Source: Promethearchaeota archaeon
GTDB taxonomy: Archaea > Asgardarchaeota > Lokiarchaeia > Sigyniarchaeales > SOKP01
Assembly (NCBI GenBank): GCA_016839555.1
Contig: JAEOUA010000012.1
Span: 317,756-381,755 of the forward strand
Length of the DNA: 64,000 nt
Reading direction: 5' to 3'
Positions within the stretch are counted from its first letter, which is position 1. Each line of letters opens with the position of its first letter. Positions 1,985-7,337 of this stretch are shown piece by piece. Position numbers and translations under genes: made by a program. The notes under the pieces were generated by a model that made no database searches, had not been told where the DNA came from, and saw only the letters and a program-made list of their open reading frames with translations.

Positions 1985-3301
1985 ATGGAATATCAAGAAT
2001 GGTTAAAGAAAAAAGATCTTGAATATAAAGAAGGAATATTATATTATGATAATATGGACACTCAACAGCTCGCAAAAGATTACGGGACACCATTATATAT
2101 AATTAATGAAAAATTAATTAGAAAAAGATACAATCAATTAAAAGTTGCACTTAATTCTGAATATAAAAACAACGAAATACATTATGCTGTGAAAGCTAAT
2201 TCTAATTTGGCAGTCTTAAAAATTCTTAAATCAGAAAATGCCAGTGTTGATTGCAGTTCTGTAGGAGAAGTTTATTCCTGCCTTAAAGCTGGATTCCCCC
2301 CGGATAAAATAATATATACAGGAAATATGTTCACAAATGAAGATTTAAAATTTGCTGTTAAGAATAATGTTTTAATAAATTTAGATAGCATTAGTCAATT
2401 AAAACGGTTAGTAAATATCTATGATGAATTAGGCAAAAAGAAAAATGCAATTTCATTCAGAATTAATCCTGAATTTGGGGCAGGACATCATTCACATACA
2501 ATTACTGCAGGAAAGGATATAAAATTTGGAATTTTGGATGATCAAGTTGTTGAGGCATATTCCCAAGCTAAAAAATATGGATTTGAAAAATTTGGAACCC
2601 ATATTCACATTGGGAGTGGTATCCTTGATCCATCCGACTATGAAAAAGCTATAAACAAATATTTTACAATAATTATGAATTTAGCAGATACATTAGATAT
2701 AACCTTTGAATTTATAGATTTTGGTGGGGGTTTAGGAATACCATACAAACCAGAACAAGAACCCTTAAATTTAAGACAATATATTCAAGTCATTATGAAT
2801 CAATTTGAAAAAGTAATAAAAAGAGAAGATTTTGGGGGTCCTACATTGAAAATTGAGCCTGGAAGATTTTTAGTTGCCGAAAGCAGTATTATTTTAACGC
2901 AAATTAATACTATAAAAGACAATGGCTATAAGAAATTCGCTGGAGTAGATGCGGGATTTAATACATTAATTCGACCTACAATGTATGGATCTTATCATCA
3001 TATTATCCCTTGTAAGTTAACTAATGGTACCACAGAACAGTATGATATTGCTGGACCTATATGTGAATCTGGAGATATCTTAGGAAAAGCGAGATTATTA
3101 CCAACAGTTCATGAGCAAGATTATTTAGCGATTCTTGATGCTGGGGCATATGGTTTCACAATGGCAAGCGTCTATAATTTAAGGCCACGGCCTCCAGAAA
3201 TTCTTCTTATAAATGGAAAGTCTTATCTAATTAGAGAAGGAGAAACTTTCGAAGACCTCTTTCGCCTTCAAAAACTTCCAAAGCATTTGAAAAAAGTCTA
3301 A
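1985..3301 (+). CDS. lysA: Diaminopimelate decarboxylase
   Basis: YGTPLY, YAVKAN (PLP lysine), HIHIGS, DFGGGLGI, EPGRFLVAE, GPICESGD and AGAYG motifs. Confidence 0.96.
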   Translation: MEYQEWLKKKDLEYKEGILYYDNMDTQQLAKDYGTPLYIINEKLIRKRYNQLKVALNSEYKNNEIHYAVKANSNLAVLKILKSENASVDCSSVGEVYSCLKAGFPPDKIIYTGNMFTNEDLKFAVKNNVLINLDSISQLKRLVNIYDELGKKKNAISFRINPEFGAGHHSHTITAGKDIKFGILDDQVVEAYSQAKKYGFEKFGTHIHIGSGILDPSDYEKAINKYFTIIMNLADTLDITFEFIDFGGGLGIPYKPEQEPLNLRQYIQVIMNQFEKVIKREDFGGPTLKIEPGRFLVAESSIILTQINTIKDNGYKKFAGVDAGFNTLIRPTMYGSYHHIIPCKLTNGTTEQYDIAGPICESGDILGKARLLPTVHEQDYLAILDAGAYGFTMASVYNLRPRPPEILLINGKSYLIREGETFEDLFRLQKLPKHLKKV

Positions 3302-3359
3302 AAACTATTTTTCCTAAAAAATAATAAAAAATTTATTCACAGCTTCCTTAATCTCAATA

Positions 3360-3496
3360 AGGTAAAATCATAAAATGGGTTTAATTAAAGTCAGGATACC
3401 CTTTAATTATGCCTTATGAAGACGTGACAAAAAGAAATCTAATTAAATAGATTAATGATTTTACTGATCTGCTCTGATGATTTTATGATTTTACCT
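3360..3496. repeat. Intergenic element bounded by a perfect 17-bp inverted repeat, with internal hairpins
   Basis: AGGTAAAATCATAAAAT (3360-3376) is the reverse complement of ATTTTATGATTTTACCT (3480-3496). Inner stems: TAATTAAAG/CTTTAATTA and AATCTA/TAGATT. Confidence 0.7.
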
Positions 3497-3565
3497 CTTA
3501 ATTATAATCATCATTTGCTAAATTAAATTGATAATTTTTAAAAATCAAGTAAAATAAAAAAAAAA

Positions 3566-4387
3566 TTATAGCCCTAAAACTTCCCTTGTTGAATAAATTT
3601 TATTTTCTGGAGCTTTAACAATAAATTTTATTGCTTTAATGGCTCCCGCTGCTAAACAATCCCTACTGTGAGCTTGATGTTTAAATTCTATTCTCTCTCC
3701 AGGACCGGCGAAGAGCACTATATGATCGCCAACTATATCTCCTGCTCTAATTGAATGGACTCCAATTTCATTTTTAGCGCCAATTGCTCTTTTATTGGGT
3801 CCTTTATCCCTGCCAAATTTCGCAATTTTTTTAAAATCAGAATGAATCGAATCAGCGATAATATTACCTATTGTTAAAGCAGTTCCACTCGGGGCGTCTA
3901 ATTTCCGATGATGATGAGCTTCAATAATTTCAATATCCCAGTCCTTTAAATAAGGAGAAAGAACAGAGAGCACTTTAAAGAAAATATTTACCCCTGTAGC
4001 CATATTCGAGGAAATCACCGCGGGAGCTTGGTATTCTTTTACTAAATTTTCAAATTGATTTAAAAACTCCTCGGATAAGCCAGTAGTACCAATAACACAT
4101 CGAATTCCATTTTTAACACAAATTACGCTATTTTTTTCTGTTGCTTCTGCCACTGTAAAATCTACTGCTACATCAGGCTGAGTACGCGCAATAATATTTT
4201 CAAGTTCTCCCACATCATTAATTATTATATTATTTGGATCACTCGTTGCAGCAACACTTCCTAAAGAATCTCCAATCTTATCTACATCGCATGCAGCAAC
4301 CACTTCAATATTAGAGTCGTCTAAAGCTAACCTACTTATTAAATGTCCCATCGAACCTGTGGGTCCAAAAATTAATAATTTTATCAA
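3566..4387 (-). CDS. dapB: 4-hydroxy-tetrahydrodipicolinate reductase
   Basis: GPTGSMG, VDFT, VIGTTG, EAHHHRKLDAPSGTA, RAGDIVGDH motifs. TTG start preceded by an AGGTG Shine-Dalgarno. Confidence 0.96.
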   Translation of the reverse strand: MIKLLIFGPTGSMGHLISRLALDDSNIEVVAACDVDKIGDSLGSVAATSDPNNIIINDVGELENIIARTQPDVAVDFTVAEATEKNSVICVKNGIRCVIGTTGLSEEFLNQFENLVKEYQAPAVISSNMATGVNIFFKVLSVLSPYLKDWDIEIIEAHHHRKLDAPSGTALTIGNIIADSIHSDFKKIAKFGRDKGPNKRAIGAKNEIGVHSIRAGDIVGDHIVLFAGPGERIEFKHQAHSRDCLAAGAIKAIKFIVKAPENKIYSTREVLGL

Positions 4388-4413
4388 ATAAACACCTTTT
4401 TTTATTAATTTGA

Positions 4414-5337
4414 TTAGAAAAGACCTTCTAAAATATCAAGATCCTTTAGTACGTTTTTAATTTTCTTTTTATTATCTTTCAATGGAGGGGTAAGAGGCAA
4501 CCTCATTTGTTCGCTCATAATGCCTAATTCTTCAGCCGCATATTTAACAGGACCGGGATTAGTTTCAATAAAGAGGACTTTAAATAAATCATATAATTCC
4601 AACTGCATTTTTCTAGCTTTCTCCCAATTTCCGGCGTTCATTGTAGTTGTAAATTCAACCATCCTTTTGGGAATGATATTAGAAGCAACACTTATAGCCC
4701 CCTTGCCTCCCAATGCCATAATATGATATGTCATACTATCATCTCCGCTTAAAACAATAAAATCTTCAGGAGTGGATTTAATAACTCTTGTTATTTGATC
4801 AATATCTCCGCTCGCACATTTAATCCCTATTATATTCTCTTTTTCATGTGCTAATACTGAAACCGTTTCTGGCTCAAGATTTCTCCCAGTTCTACTTGGA
4901 ACATTATATAAAACGATTGGAAGTGAAACAGAATCCGCAACCTTAGAAAAATGATCAATTAAAGAGTGTTGTACCGGTTTATTATAATAAGGAACAACCA
5001 ATAGCAATCCATCTGCTCCTGCGTTCTCAGCATACTGGCTCAATGAAATTGCCTCATCAGTCGAATTACTTCCTGTTCCTGCCAACACAAAGGGATCTTT
5101 ACCGCTTTTTTTTGCTTCATCAACCGCAATATCAATCGCATGTTTATGTTCTTTATGAGAAAGTGTTGCAGATTCTCCTGTTGTGCCCATAGTTAATATA
5201 TGGCACCCATTATCAATCTGAAATCTAATAAATTCCCTATATTTCTCCTCATCTAAAGAGAAGTCTTCTTTAAAGGGGGTGATCATTGCAGTTATAACAT
5301 TTTTCAATTTATCTAATTTCATATTACTTTCTACCAT
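4414..5337 (-). CDS. dapA: 4-hydroxy-tetrahydrodipicolinate synthase
   Basis: GTTGESATL, GTGSNST, PYYNKP, LYNVPSRTG, GIKCASG, SGDD and FIETNPGPVK motifs. Confidence 0.96.
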   Translation of the reverse strand: MVESNMKLDKLKNVITAMITPFKEDFSLDEEKYREFIRFQIDNGCHILTMGTTGESATLSHKEHKHAIDIAVDEAKKSGKDPFVLAGTGSNSTDEAISLSQYAENAGADGLLLVVPYYNKPVQHSLIDHFSKVADSVSLPIVLYNVPSRTGRNLEPETVSVLAHEKENIIGIKCASGDIDQITRVIKSTPEDFIVLSGDDSMTYHIMALGGKGAISVASNIIPKRMVEFTTTMNAGNWEKARKMQLELYDLFKVLFIETNPGPVKYAAEELGIMSEQMRLPLTPPLKDNKKKIKNVLKDLDILEGLF

Positions 5338-5518
5338 TTTTTCTTCTTTATAATTATGTTACTATTGCTTATAAGATTTATCGTCATTTTTAAAATTCAG
5401 TTATTTTTTTTATAAGATGTTTTAACTGGATTTAATTTTTCAAGCTTCTTTCCTTCCTTCATTCTATTATAATAAGTTTATTTTTAGACAAATATAATGA
5501 AATTTTTAAAAAAGAACA

Positions 5519-5944
5519 TTAAAAATACTTTTCTCCAAAAAAGAGAGAAATTTCTCTTTTTGCTGACTCTGGCGAATCAGAGGCATGAACCATATTTTCT
5601 GTGACAGATTTTACGGGCTCTTCCCTGAAGTCCCCTCTAATAGTCCCCTTTTTAGCTTCCTTAGGAATAGTTGCTCCCACTAATTCCCTAATATAAGGAA
5701 TAGAATTTTCACCTTCAATTATAAGAGCAACAGAATTTCCCGATGTTATGAATTTAATTAAGCCTTCATAAAACTCCTTTCCTTTATGTTCTATATAATG
5801 ATTTTCGGCTAATTCATGAGTTATTTTTAACATTTTAAGTGCCCTAATATTGAGATTTTTTTCCTCAAATCTGTTTAAAATCTTTCCAATTAATCCCCTG
5901 TGAACGGCATCCGGCTTAATTATAATCAATGATTTTTGAATCAT
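5519..5944 (-). CDS. ndk: Nucleoside diphosphate kinase
   Basis: IIKPDAV, GTIRGDF and NMVHASDS (catalytic His) motifs. Confidence 0.96.
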   Translation of the reverse strand: MIQKSLIIIKPDAVHRGLIGKILNRFEEKNLNIRALKMLKITHELAENHYIEHKGKEFYEGLIKFITSGNSVALIIEGENSIPYIRELVGATIPKEAKKGTIRGDFREEPVKSVTENMVHASDSPESAKREISLFFGEKYF

Positions 5945-6059: not shown

Positions 6060-7337
6060 TTACTGTTTATTTTCATTTGCCTTTTTTTTGGCAATAAAAC
6101 CCATTCTACTTTGCAAGCCCCATAAAGGAATAAAACCATAACTATATTTTTGATTGAAGGAACTTTTGGTCTCATAAGTCGCTAAATTTAAGTCATATAT
6201 CCCATATGGGGATTTTCGGGCTATCACTTCAGCAGATCCCTTAAAAAGCTTCATTGAAACACTCCCGGCAACTTTTATATTTATCTCATTAATGAAGGCT
6301 TCTAAAGCATCCCTCAGAGGATCTACCCATAATCCATCATATACTAATTCTGTCCATCTCTGATCAATTAACGATTTAAATGAATTTTCATGCTTAGTGC
6401 ATACATATTTCTCTAAATCTTTATGGGCTTTTATTAATATTAACGCTGCGGGAATCTCATAAGTTTCTCTAGATTTTAATCCAATCGCACGATCTTCCAT
6501 ATGTTCTATTCTTCCTATTCCATGTTTGCAACCAATATCATGGATCCTCTTGATTAATTCTACTCCCTCCATAGGTTGATCATTTATTCCTATAGGTATT
6601 CCTTCTTTAAAATTAATAGTAATATATTCTGGGTTGTTGGGTGCTTCCTCAGGAGGTACAGTCCATTCTTTAGAGTCCTCTGGAGGTTCAATGTCAGGTT
6701 GCTCTAAAATATCACATTCTGCACTACGACCGAAAAGATTTTCATCTACGCTATACTTTTTATTTTGATTAGATATCGGAATATTATGTTGTTGGGCATA
6801 TTTAATTTCTTCATCACGTCCCATATTCCACTCGATGAGTGGTTGAAGAATTTCCATTTCTGGTGCATAAGCTTGAGCTGTAGTATTAATTCGAATTTGA
6901 TCATTTCCCTTTCCAGTACATCCATGAGCAAGGACTTCAATGCCTTCCTTTTGTGCAATTTTTACTGCTTCTATTGCAATTAGCGGTCTGCCGATAGCTG
7001 TACTTAAAGGATAAATCCCTTGATAAAGTCCATTTGCTTTAATAGTAGGAAAAACATATTCATTAACAAATTTTTCTTTCAAATCTACAGTAAAGTGTTT
7101 AATAGCTCCCAATTGTTTTGCTTTATCCTCAATTTGTTTAAAACGTGAGGGATCCGCGAATTCTTGCCCTAAATCTGCGGTAAAAGTGTATATTTGGGCA
7201 TGATATTTTTCTTGGAGCCATTTAAGCATACAGGAAGTGTATAATCATATATATGGAATTCATATATATTCTAACCCTCCTGAATACATAAGTAAGATCT
7301 TATCATATTTATCCTTTTTAGGTCCTAATTCACTCAC
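6060..7337 (-). CDS. argG: Argininosuccinate synthase, split by a putative 30-nt intron: exon 1 7337-7271, exon 2 7240-6060, 415 aa spliced
   Basis: The ORF-track protein (start 7229) has YPLSTAIGRP, HGCTGKGNDQ, YSVDENLFGRS and KSRETYE but lacks the N-terminal P-loop. GTG at 7337 gives MSELGPKKDKYDKILLMYSGGL, and removing 7241-7270 joins this to D-T-S-C-M-L-K-W, restoring YSGGLDTS. Confidence 0.92.
7241..7270 (-). other. Putative bulge-helix-bulge (BHB) intron in argG mRNA
   Basis: mRNA-sense insert A-AUAUAUAUG-AAUUC-CAUAUAUAU-GAUU-AU. It has a perfect 9-bp internal stem, a 4-bp central helix GGUU/GAUU, 3-nt bulges AG^A and AU^A, and two in-frame UGA codons. Confidence 0.82.

What the first reader, a model, noticed from the sequence alone, without database searches (positions are those of the whole stretch)
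7241..7270. Candidate BHB (tRNA-endonuclease-type) intron inside a protein-coding gene, argG, in an Asgard-like archaeon
Seen in sequence: the argG mRNA reads ...UAU UCA GGA GGG UUA G[AAUAUAUAUGAAUUCCAUAUAUAUGAUUAU]AC ACU UCC UGU AUG... The 30-nt insert splits the Asp codon of the invariant ATP-binding SGGLDTS motif and contains two in-frame UGA stops. Its precise removal gives a 415-aa ArgG. The insert matches BHB geometry exactly: 1 bulge nt + 9-bp perfect stem (AUAUAUAUG/CAUAUAUAU, 5-nt loop) + 4-nt helix strand + 2 bulge nt = 30. The central helix is GGUU/GAUU (G-U, G-U, U-A, U-G) and the bulges are AG^A and AU^A. The exons also pair with each other (GUAU-U-CAGGA with UCCUG-U-AUGC). Established: archaeal EndA cuts BHB motifs after the second bulge nucleotide and RtcB ligates; mRNA introns of this type are known in few genes, the classic case being crenarchaeal cbf5. 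Inference: this organism splices an mRNA for a core metabolic enzyme. That would matter in the archaeal lineage closest to eukaryotes, and such introns are invisible to ORF callers (the ORF track truncates the gene at 7229). The wobble-rich central helix is the weakest part of the model.
Basis: partly seen in the sequence, partly recalled or inferred. Interest (0 to 1): 0.95.

Follow-up and report, generated by a model that had tools for sequence, protein, structure and literature searches.

The report
tRNA-type mini-intron splitting Asgard argG
The only argininosuccinate synthase gene of this Asgard archaeon is broken inside its ATP-binding motif by a 30-base insert shaped like a tRNA intron, and relatives show that the gene is still in use, so its mRNA very probably has to be cut and re-joined by the tRNA-splicing enzymes.

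Summary
The minus-strand argG is split at window 7241-7270 by 30 nt with two in-frame TGA stops. Exact removal gives a 415-aa ArgG with an intact SGGLDTS motif.

The interpretation as a BHB intron removed by EndA is supported by comparison, not by RNA data.
- Same-site inserts occur in 7 genomes of 5 genera of one family: six of 30 nt and one of 32 nt with an unrelated, frame-breaking sequence.
- All fold as 4-bp central helix, two 3-nt bulges and a hairpin. The weak GGUU/GAUU helix of this genome is GAUU/GAUC, GAUU/AAUC or GUCU/GGAC in relatives.
- The hairpin shows 3 compensatory pairs.
- Intron-bearing genes are under strong purifying selection (dN/dS 0.04-0.10) and keep nearly all invariant residues.
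- Exon codons that form the motif are fixed: Asp is GAC in 7/7 intron-bearing genes against 4/29 intronless ones.
- The genome has one argG, two EndA paralogues and RtcB. It also has the same insert architecture in at least three other conserved genes.

Pseudogene, assembly artefact, repeat element and translational bypass are rejected.

This scan noted the same argG intron before in other genomes, and similar introns elsewhere in this genome. In the papers I could search, archaeal mRNA BHB introns are reported only for cbf5 and one Haloferax 5' UTR.

The parts
7271..7337 (-). argG exon 1. GTG start at 7337-7335, then 22 codons (MSELGPKKDKYDKILLMYSGGL) plus the first base (G 7271) of the Asp codon.
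   Evidence: The N-terminus matches relatives (MNQLGPKK...). The Pfam PF00764 match starts at KILLMYSGG.
7241..7270 (-). 30-nt BHB-type mini-intron. It has two in-frame UGA stops and is unique in the genome.
   Evidence: Same-site homologues occur in 6 other genomes.
6060..7240 (-). argG exon 2. AC completes the Asp codon, then TSCMLKWLQ... runs to the stop. The ORF caller sees it only from ATG 7229.
   Evidence: PF00764 plus PF20979, full length.
7277..7281 (-). Outer exon helix h, 5' strand (AGGAG). It pairs with 7239-7235.
   Evidence: 83% of cells are paired. The A.A mismatch in 5 of 6 sequences is U-A in G042.
7273..7276 (-). Central 4-bp helix H, 5' strand (GGUU), inside exon 1.
   Evidence: paired in 100% of cells in the 6 aligned sequences. 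It is GAUU in the g3, g5 and g8 relatives.
7270..7272 (-). Bulge 1 (A G ^ A). The inferred 5' cut lies between 7271 and 7270.
   Evidence: The geometry and exact restoration of the GAC codon. The bulge is AG^A in all six 30-nt introns.
7247..7269 (-). Intron hairpin h'. A 9-bp stem (AUAUAUAUG/CAUAUAUAU) with loop AAUUC.
   Evidence: paired in 100% of cells, with 3 pairs changed on both sides.
7243..7246 (-). Central helix H, 3' strand (GAUU), inside the intron.
   Evidence: It is GAUC or AAUC in relatives, giving 3-4 Watson-Crick pairs.
7240..7242 (-). Bulge 2 (A U ^ A). The inferred 3' cut lies between 7241 and 7240.
   Evidence: The bulge is AA^A or AG^A in relatives.
7235..7239 (-). Outer exon helix h, 3' strand (CACUU).
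   Evidence: The Asp codon is GAC in 7/7 intron-bearing genes against 4/29 intronless genes.

Best explanation
The 30 nt at window 7241-7270 are an archaeal bulge-helix-bulge (BHB) intron inside the argG coding sequence.

Inferred mechanism:
1. In the pre-mRNA, exon 1 supplies one strand of a 4-bp central helix, and the intron's 3' part supplies the other.
2. A 9-bp intron hairpin and an exon-exon helix flank the central helix.
3. Two 3-nt bulges on opposite strands present the cut sites.
4. The heteromeric splicing endonuclease EndA cuts after the second nucleotide of each bulge (G7271^A7270 and U7241^A7240).
5. RtcB joins the exons. This recreates the GAC Asp codon of SGGLDTS and a 415-aa ArgG. 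The intron is released, probably as a 30-nt circle.

Without splicing, translation stops after 25 codons. The downstream ORF from ATG 7229 would lack the ATP-binding loop.

What is shown: the interruption, its geometry, its conservation and covariation, selection on the host gene, and the presence of the enzymes.

What is inferred: cleavage, ligation and any regulatory role.
For: 1. The position is exact. Removal restores the frame and the invariant motif. PF00764 aligns across the insert.
2. The same site is interrupted in 7 of about 40 argG-bearing genomes of the family, in 5 genera. One insert is 32 nt, has a wholly different GC-richer stem and breaks the frame. Its MFE fold is itself h-bulge-H-bulge-h'.
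3. Structure counts on six gapless sequences: H is 100% paired; h' is 100% paired with 3 compensatory pairs; 95% of all cells are paired, against 20-60% when the partner is slid. G042 is fully canonical, with h GGGUG/CACCU and H GAUU/AAUC.
4. The host gene is functional while it carries the intron. For the intron-bearing trio G010/G050/G051, dS is 0.13-0.16 and dN/dS is 0.06-0.075. All intron-bearing pairs give 0.04-0.10. This genome deviates at 1 of 137 otherwise invariant columns, by V to I.
5. Exon synonymous sites that build the motif are fixed in intron-bearing alleles. Asp is GAC in 7/7 against 4/29. The following Ser is TCC in 6/7 against 3/29.
6. There is a single argG copy.
7. The machinery is present. 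There are two EndA paralogues; one is closest to the crenarchaeal heterotetramer chains 3p1z_B/3ajv_B/2zyz_B and the other is divergent. RtcB is present. Asgard EndA is reported as the (alpha-beta)2 type with the loop that gives broad specificity (PMC5829648).
8. Three other conserved genes of this genome have the same architecture: AMP phosphorylase, RNase HII and porB.
9. ARAGORN finds introns in 17 of 28 tRNAs.
Against: In this genome the central helix is three G.U pairs and one U-A. The canonical BHB conformation scores only -3.4 kcal/mol, against an MFE of -22.3 for a competing fold in which the exon helix invades H. The exon helix next to bulge 2 has an A.A mismatch in 5 of 6 sequences.

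argH was not found in this genome, which is 92% complete. The pathway context here is therefore incomplete, although intron-bearing G008 and G010 do have argH.

The covariation rests on only 5 independent lineages.
Confidence: 0.85

Rival explanations
1. Pseudogene. argG was inactivated by a small insertion and is decaying, or only a truncated product from ATG 7229 is made.
For: There are two in-frame stops. argH was not detected in this genome. argG is missing from many genomes of the family, so the pathway is dispensable in some lineages.
Against: dN/dS is 0.04-0.10, including between three close species that all carry the insert. Of 137 invariant columns, 136 are kept. There is no other stop or frameshift in any of the 7 genes. 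The terminal branch is no longer than that of the intronless sister. A product from ATG 7229 would lack the SGGLDTS ATP-binding loop.
Confidence: 0.03
2. Programmed translational bypass. The ribosome hops over the 30 nt, as in phage T4 gene 60 or the mitochondrial byp elements, and the mRNA stays unspliced.
For: This genome has a UUA codon before the insert and a UUA near its end, a stop soon after take-off, and a stable hairpin.
Against: A UUA-to-UUA hop would give SGGLYTS and lose the invariant Asp. G010, G008 and G042 have no matching landing codon. In G024, the only matching GAC lands out of frame (read). The bypass model does not explain the conserved 4-bp helix, the 3-nt bulges or the exon codon constraint.
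Confidence: 0.03
3. Assembly or sequencing artefact, or a repeated palindromic element (MITE-like) that inserted by chance.
For: The sequence is an AT-rich perfect palindrome, the kind that can arise from chimeric reads.
Against: The same site is occupied in 7 independent assemblies by diverged sequences. The 30-mer is unique in the genome at up to 5 mismatches. There is no target-site duplication.
Confidence: 0.01
4. The insert is removed from the RNA, but by another activity than EndA/RtcB, or it is cut without efficient re-ligation and acts mainly as an expression switch.
For: The weak central helix and the competing fold in this genome could make EndA cleavage inefficient or conditional.
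Against: The geometry matches the EndA substrate to the nucleotide in all 7 genomes. No other archaeal activity is known to excise 30 nt precisely; this rests on established knowledge, not on a test here.
Confidence: 0.07

Closest known systems
BHB intron in the cbf5 (aCBF5 pseudouridine synthase) pre-mRNA of Crenarchaeota (Watanabe 2002; Yoshinari 2006; Yokobori 2009, PMC2738675)
   Same: [quoted passage not shown] It is cut by a hetero-oligomeric splicing endonuclease of relaxed specificity. Its distribution is lineage-specific, with inferred losses, and gene callers mis-annotate it.
   Different: The gene is different (a metabolic enzyme, argG) and so is the phylum (Asgard). The motif here is mostly canonical hBHBh', not relaxed. 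The intron splits a codon of the catalytic ATP-binding loop. Its distribution is much patchier, needing 5 changes on the gene tree within one family. It is one of several such introns in the same genome. Splicing is not shown experimentally here.
BHB intron in the 5' UTR of HVO_1309 mRNA, Haloferax volcanii (Schwarz 2020, PMC7714728)
   Same: An mRNA substrate of the tRNA-splicing endonuclease. The excised intron was detected as a circle and the motif was cut in vitro by the recombinant enzyme.
   Different: That intron is 46 nt, lies in an untranslated region and does not interrupt the reading frame. The argG intron must be removed for any functional protein to be made.
Archaeal pre-tRNA introns, including the intron-rich tRNA genes of Asgard archaea (bioRxiv 10.64898/2026.10.13.758758; PMC5829648)
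   Same: The same motif: two 3-nt bulges, a 4-bp helix and a cut after the second bulge nucleotide. The same size range and the same enzymes. In this genome ARAGORN finds introns in 17 of 28 tRNAs.
   Different: The host RNA is an mRNA. [quoted passage not shown]
Unconventional HAC1/XBP1 mRNA splicing in eukaryotes (IRE1 cleavage, RtcB or Trl1 ligation)
   Same: Spliceosome-independent mRNA splicing by an endonuclease plus a tRNA ligase. Removal of a short intron changes the reading frame. This comparison rests on established knowledge and was not tested here.
   Different: The endonuclease is different (IRE1, not EndA/Sen) and so is the RNA motif (twin stem-loops). No homology is claimed.

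Membership tests
Archaeal BHB (EndA-type) intron | [quoted passage not shown] | tested here: met
   The layout is H(4), bulge(3), hairpin, H'(4), bulge(3) in all six 30-nt introns, with H paired in 100% of cells. G024's MFE fold gives the same layout with a 2-3-nt first bulge. In this genome H is G.U, G.U, U-A, U.G, which is weak.
Archaeal BHB (EndA-type) intron | Cuts after the second nucleotide of each bulge give a functional mature RNA. | tested here: met
   The predicted cuts restore GAC (Asp), the SGGLDTS motif and a full-length ORF of 411-415 aa in all 7 genes.
Archaeal BHB (EndA-type) intron | Flanking helices h (exon-exon) and h' (intron). | tested here: met
   h' is 9 bp, 100% paired, with 3 compensatory pairs. 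h is 5 bp, 83% paired, with an A.A mismatch in 5 of 6 sequences, and is fully paired in G042.
Archaeal BHB (EndA-type) intron | The host encodes the splicing endonuclease and the RtcB ligase. | tested here: met
   There are two PF01974 genes (104 and 73 bits) and one RtcB gene (564 bits). One EndA is closest to chains of crenarchaeal heterotetramer entries. The specificity loop L1 was not examined.
Archaeal BHB (EndA-type) intron | Excision and exon ligation observed in RNA (spliced junction, circular intron). | not testable with these tools
cbf5 pre-mRNA intron family | Located in the cbf5 gene of Desulfurococcales or Sulfolobales. | tested here: not met
   The host gene is argG in an actin-encoding, Asgard-type genome. 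The intron works like the cbf5 intron but is not a member of that family.
Programmed translational bypass element | Matching take-off and landing codons that restore the conserved protein. | tested here: not met
   Only this genome has a matching pair (UUA/UUA), and using it would replace the invariant Asp. G010, G008 and G042 have none, and G024's lands out of frame.
   PF00022 hits score 447 and 427 bits, and no archaeal control genome gave a hit. 17 of 28 tRNAs carry introns. The class name (Lokiarchaeia) was not verified here.

The most novel reading that the evidence does not exclude
In this Asgard family, splicing of mRNAs by the tRNA-splicing machinery may be a routine, genome-wide step of gene expression. 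Many core genes would carry 28-32-nt BHB mini-introns: argG, AMP phosphorylase, RNase HII and porB were read here, and earlier notes of this scan list more. These introns would turn over quickly. Homologous introns sit at the same argG site in scattered species, which needs 5 or more gains or many precise losses. That suggests lateral spread, homing, or cDNA-mediated loss. If so, this is a population of mobile, protein-independent mRNA introns in the closest prokaryotic relatives of eukaryotes.
Probability: 0.4. Interest if true: 0.9.

Novelty: new member of a known kind. Interest (0 to 1): 0.75.

Why it matters
In the papers I could search, archaeal mRNA splicing by the tRNA endonuclease is documented for one coding gene (cbf5, Crenarchaeota) and one 5' UTR (Haloferax).

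Here a core biosynthetic enzyme gene in an Asgard archaeon cannot yield a functional protein unless 30 nt are removed from its mRNA. Comparative data show that the interrupted gene is under selection.

Three consequences follow.
1. Gene callers truncate or split such genes. Metabolic reconstructions of Asgard genomes therefore under-count intact genes.
2. Interrupted protein-coding genes and obligatory mRNA splicing exist in the archaeal lineage nearest to eukaryotes. This gives a tractable system for asking how introns in coding genes are gained, kept and lost without a spliceosome.
3. The exon half of the motif visibly constrains codon choice. This is a simple signature that can be used to find more cases.

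Tried and rejected
- **Genome-wide scan of my own.** I looked for strict BHB geometry combined with an ORF-joining test. It gave as many hits as a mirror-geometry control: 98 against 105, and 299 against 351. Inspection of the 12 strongest hits showed only porB as a clear intron besides argG. The scan is not specific and gives no census.
- **Metagenome search.** A search with the N-terminal 160 residues returned mainly distant argG. One intronless 70%-identical relative came back, and no further intron-bearing copies.
- **Taxonomic hint.** The protein atlas gave none.
- **First DNA alignment.** One search used wrong coordinates and was redone.
- **G018.** Its argG N-terminus ends at a contig edge just after CTTGAT, so presence of an intron there could not be decided.
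- **Rejected readings.** Pseudogene, translational bypass, repeat element and assembly artefact were considered and rejected, as set out under the rival explanations.

Full report
**Observation**

argG lies on the minus strand. The ORF caller lists it only from ATG 7229 to 6060, as 389 aa. Upstream, in the same frame, the sequence reads GTG(7337) ...KILLMYSGGL. Then come 30 nt (7270-7241), then AC ACT TCC TGT ATG.

Read through with TGA as a residue, the protein is YSGGL-EYIWIPYIWLY-TSCMLK, with two TGA codons. Deleting the 30 nt rebuilds GAC (Asp) and the SGGLDTS loop. The product is 415 aa, from 67 nt of exon 1 plus 1181 nt of exon 2 including the stop.

Pfam's ArgG N-terminal domain aligns over profile positions 1-162 in one stretch across the insert, and the C-terminal domain is complete.

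The insert contains a perfect 9-bp stem with a 5-nt loop. The stem sits 1 nt from the insert's 5' end and 6 nt from its 3' end, as BHB geometry requires. The 86-nt region folds better than 199 of 200 shuffles.

Two nuances apply. The exon helix next to the second bulge has an A.A mismatch. The minimum-energy fold prefers a longer exon-exon helix that competes with the wobble-rich GGUU/GAUU central helix.

**Is it real and is the gene alive?**

The genome (3.74 Mb, 12 contigs, 92% complete) has a single argG.

I searched 135 genomes of the same family and 400 of the phylum. The same codon is interrupted in six other genomes:
- G010, G050 and G051 (genus g5);
- G008 (g3);
- G042 (g8);
- G024 (g9).

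None was found outside the family. About 35 family members have an uninterrupted gene, including all six other species of the window's own genus.

Five inserts are 30 nt and recognisably homologous to the one here. G024's is 32 nt, has an unrelated GC-richer sequence and shifts the frame. Seven independent assemblies with diverged inserts at one site exclude an assembly artefact. The 30-mer is unique in the genome even at 5 mismatches and has no target duplication, so it is not a repeat element.

After removal of the insert, all seven genes are open over 411-415 codons.

Pairwise dN/dS between intron-bearing genes is 0.04-0.10. For the three close g5 species that all carry the insert, dS is 0.13-0.16 and dN/dS is 0.06-0.075. 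The gene has therefore evolved under strong purifying selection while interrupted.

This genome's protein deviates at 1 of 137 otherwise invariant columns, by V to I. Its branch is no longer than that of its intronless sister. A pseudogene is therefore very unlikely.

**Structure and covariation**

On a gapless alignment of the six 30-nt cases, I imposed this structure: h (5 bp), H (4 bp), bulge (3), h' (9 bp), H', bulge (3), h.
- Overall, 95% of cells pair, against 20-60% when the 3' partner is slid by 1-3 columns.
- H is paired in every sequence.
- h' is paired in every sequence, with three pairs changed on both sides (A-U to U-A, C-G to U-A, A-U to G-C).
- h is 83% paired.

- g5 and g3 have GAUU/GAUC (three Watson-Crick pairs and one wobble);
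- G042 has GAUU/AAUC (four Watson-Crick pairs) and a clean exon helix GGGUG/CACCU;
- G024 has GUCU/GGAC.

G024's unconstrained MFE fold is itself exon helix, 3-nt bulge, 4-bp helix, bulge, intron helix.

The bulges read AG^A, or UG^A in G024, on the 5' side. On the 3' side they read AU^A, AA^A or AG^A.

The exon half of the motif leaves a footprint in codon choice. Asp is GAC in 7 of 7 intron-bearing genes but in 4 of 29 intronless ones. The following Ser is TCC in 6 of 7 against 3 of 29. The C of GAC is the first pair of helix h. These counts come from five independent lineages at most, so they are suggestive, not a formal test.

**Machinery and genomic context**

The genome encodes two tRNA-intron endonuclease paralogues. 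One is closest to chains of crenarchaeal heterotetrameric EndA structures (3p1z_B, 3ajv_B, 2zyz_B). The other is divergent. This fits the (alpha-beta)2 enzyme with broad substrate range reported for Asgard archaea (PMC5829648). RtcB is present.

ARAGORN finds introns in 17 of the 28 tRNA genes it detects. This agrees with a recent preprint on intron-rich Asgard tRNA genes. Actin homologues at 447 and 427 bits support the Asgard assignment.

Leads from earlier notes of this scan were checked by reading the DNA.
- AMP phosphorylase is split inside DKHST|GGVPGNK by 31 nt with H UAGU/GCUA and a 9-bp stem (G000:C12:205678-205708).
- RNase HII is split inside DEAGR|GPVLGP by 28 nt with H AGGG/CCCU (C12:69954-69981).
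- porB is split inside NTGIQ|SGGTPP by 31 nt with H UCCA/UGGA (C6:79408-79438). My own scan found this one independently.

The four introns share architecture, not sequence. The argG intron is thus one of a set in this genome.

**Mechanism**

The best-supported reading is an EndA/RtcB-spliced pre-mRNA intron.
1. EndA recognises the bulge-helix-bulge.
2. It cuts after the second nucleotide of each bulge (7271^7270 and 7241^7240).
3. RtcB joins the exons.

The interruption, the geometry, the covariation, the selection and the presence of the enzymes are shown. Cleavage and ligation are inferred.

In this genome the motif is the weakest of the seven. The canonical conformation scores -3.4 kcal/mol, against -13.8 in G042. 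Splicing may therefore be less efficient or conditional here; I could not test that.

Translational bypass is rejected. The only matching codon pair (UUA/UUA, in this genome) would replace the invariant Asp. Four of the other genomes have no usable pair, and G024's lands out of frame.

**Evolution**

On a maximum-likelihood ArgG tree of 36 sequences, the intron label needs five changes, and starred branches force all five. The 30-nt introns are homologous. The pattern therefore means either an ancestral intron with a dozen or more precise losses, or spread of the intron, or of the argG 5' region, between lineages. G024's different intron may be an independent gain at the same site or an extreme divergence. 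I cannot decide between these readings.

**Comparison with what is known**

In the library I could search, BHB introns in archaeal mRNAs are reported for two cases:
- cbf5 of Crenarchaeota (Watanabe 2002; Yoshinari 2006; Yokobori 2009, PMC2738675);
- the 5' UTR of Haloferax HVO_1309 (PMC7714728). That paper states that cbf5 was the only other example.

Five searches found no paper on BHB introns in Asgard protein-coding genes. The argG intron works like the cbf5 intron but is not a member of that family. I file it as a new member of a known kind.

Earlier notes of this scan reached the same reading for argG in two other genomes (e1-5519056, e1-5519047) and for other genes of this genome.

**Caveats**
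- argH was not found in this genome, although 8 of 15 family relatives have it, including intron-bearing G008 and G010.
- My naive genome-wide scan was not specific, so the number of such introns in the genome is unknown.

Noticed in passing
G000:C12:205678-205708 (outside the window, same contig): A 31-nt insert splits the DKHST|GGVPGNK motif of an AMP/thymidine-phosphorylase-type gene. It has the same architecture as the argG intron: H UAGU/GCUA, bulges AC^A and AA^A, a 9-bp stem and a 6-nt loop.
   Followed up: partly
G000:C12:69954-69981 (outside the window, same contig): A 28-nt insert splits the DEAGR|GPVLGP catalytic motif of RNase HII. H is AGGG/CCCU (four Watson-Crick pairs) and the bulges are AG^A and AA^A.
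   Followed up: partly
G000:C6:79408-79438: A 31-nt insert in porB lies between ...YDNEAFMNTGIQ and SGGTPPYASTTT. It has a 9-bp stem GAAUUCUAC/GUAGAAUUC and H UCCA/UGGA. My structural scan found it independently.
   Followed up: partly
whole genome G000; best lyase at G000:C1:256909-258120: No argH was detected. TIGR00838 scores only 98 bits against a cut-off of 279.5, on a gene that Pfam reads as adenylosuccinate lyase. 8 of 15 family relatives have a clear argH. Either it lies in the missing 8% of the assembly, or argG works here without a canonical argH.
   Followed up: partly
argG gene tree, loci L002-L054: Homologous 30-nt introns at one site are scattered over the ArgG tree, which needs 5 changes. 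Sister species of the same genus differ in presence. G024 has an unrelated 32-nt intron at the same site. This suggests frequent precise loss or lateral spread.
   Followed up: partly
whole genome G000: ARAGORN detects only 28 tRNA genes, and 17 of them have an intron. The low total suggests that many tRNA genes are too interrupted to be found.
   Followed up: no
window 1985-5944: Downstream of argG on the same strand lie ndk (5519-5944), dapA (4414-5337) and dapB (3566-4387). A lysA-type PLP decarboxylase lies on the other strand (1985-3301). This is a lysine-biosynthesis cluster next to argG.
   Followed up: partly
L030 (G018:C231, contig end): The argG N-terminus of G018 ends at the contig edge with ...GGT CTT GAT TTT, just where the intron would start. 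The break in the assembly may itself be caused by an insert there.
   Followed up: no
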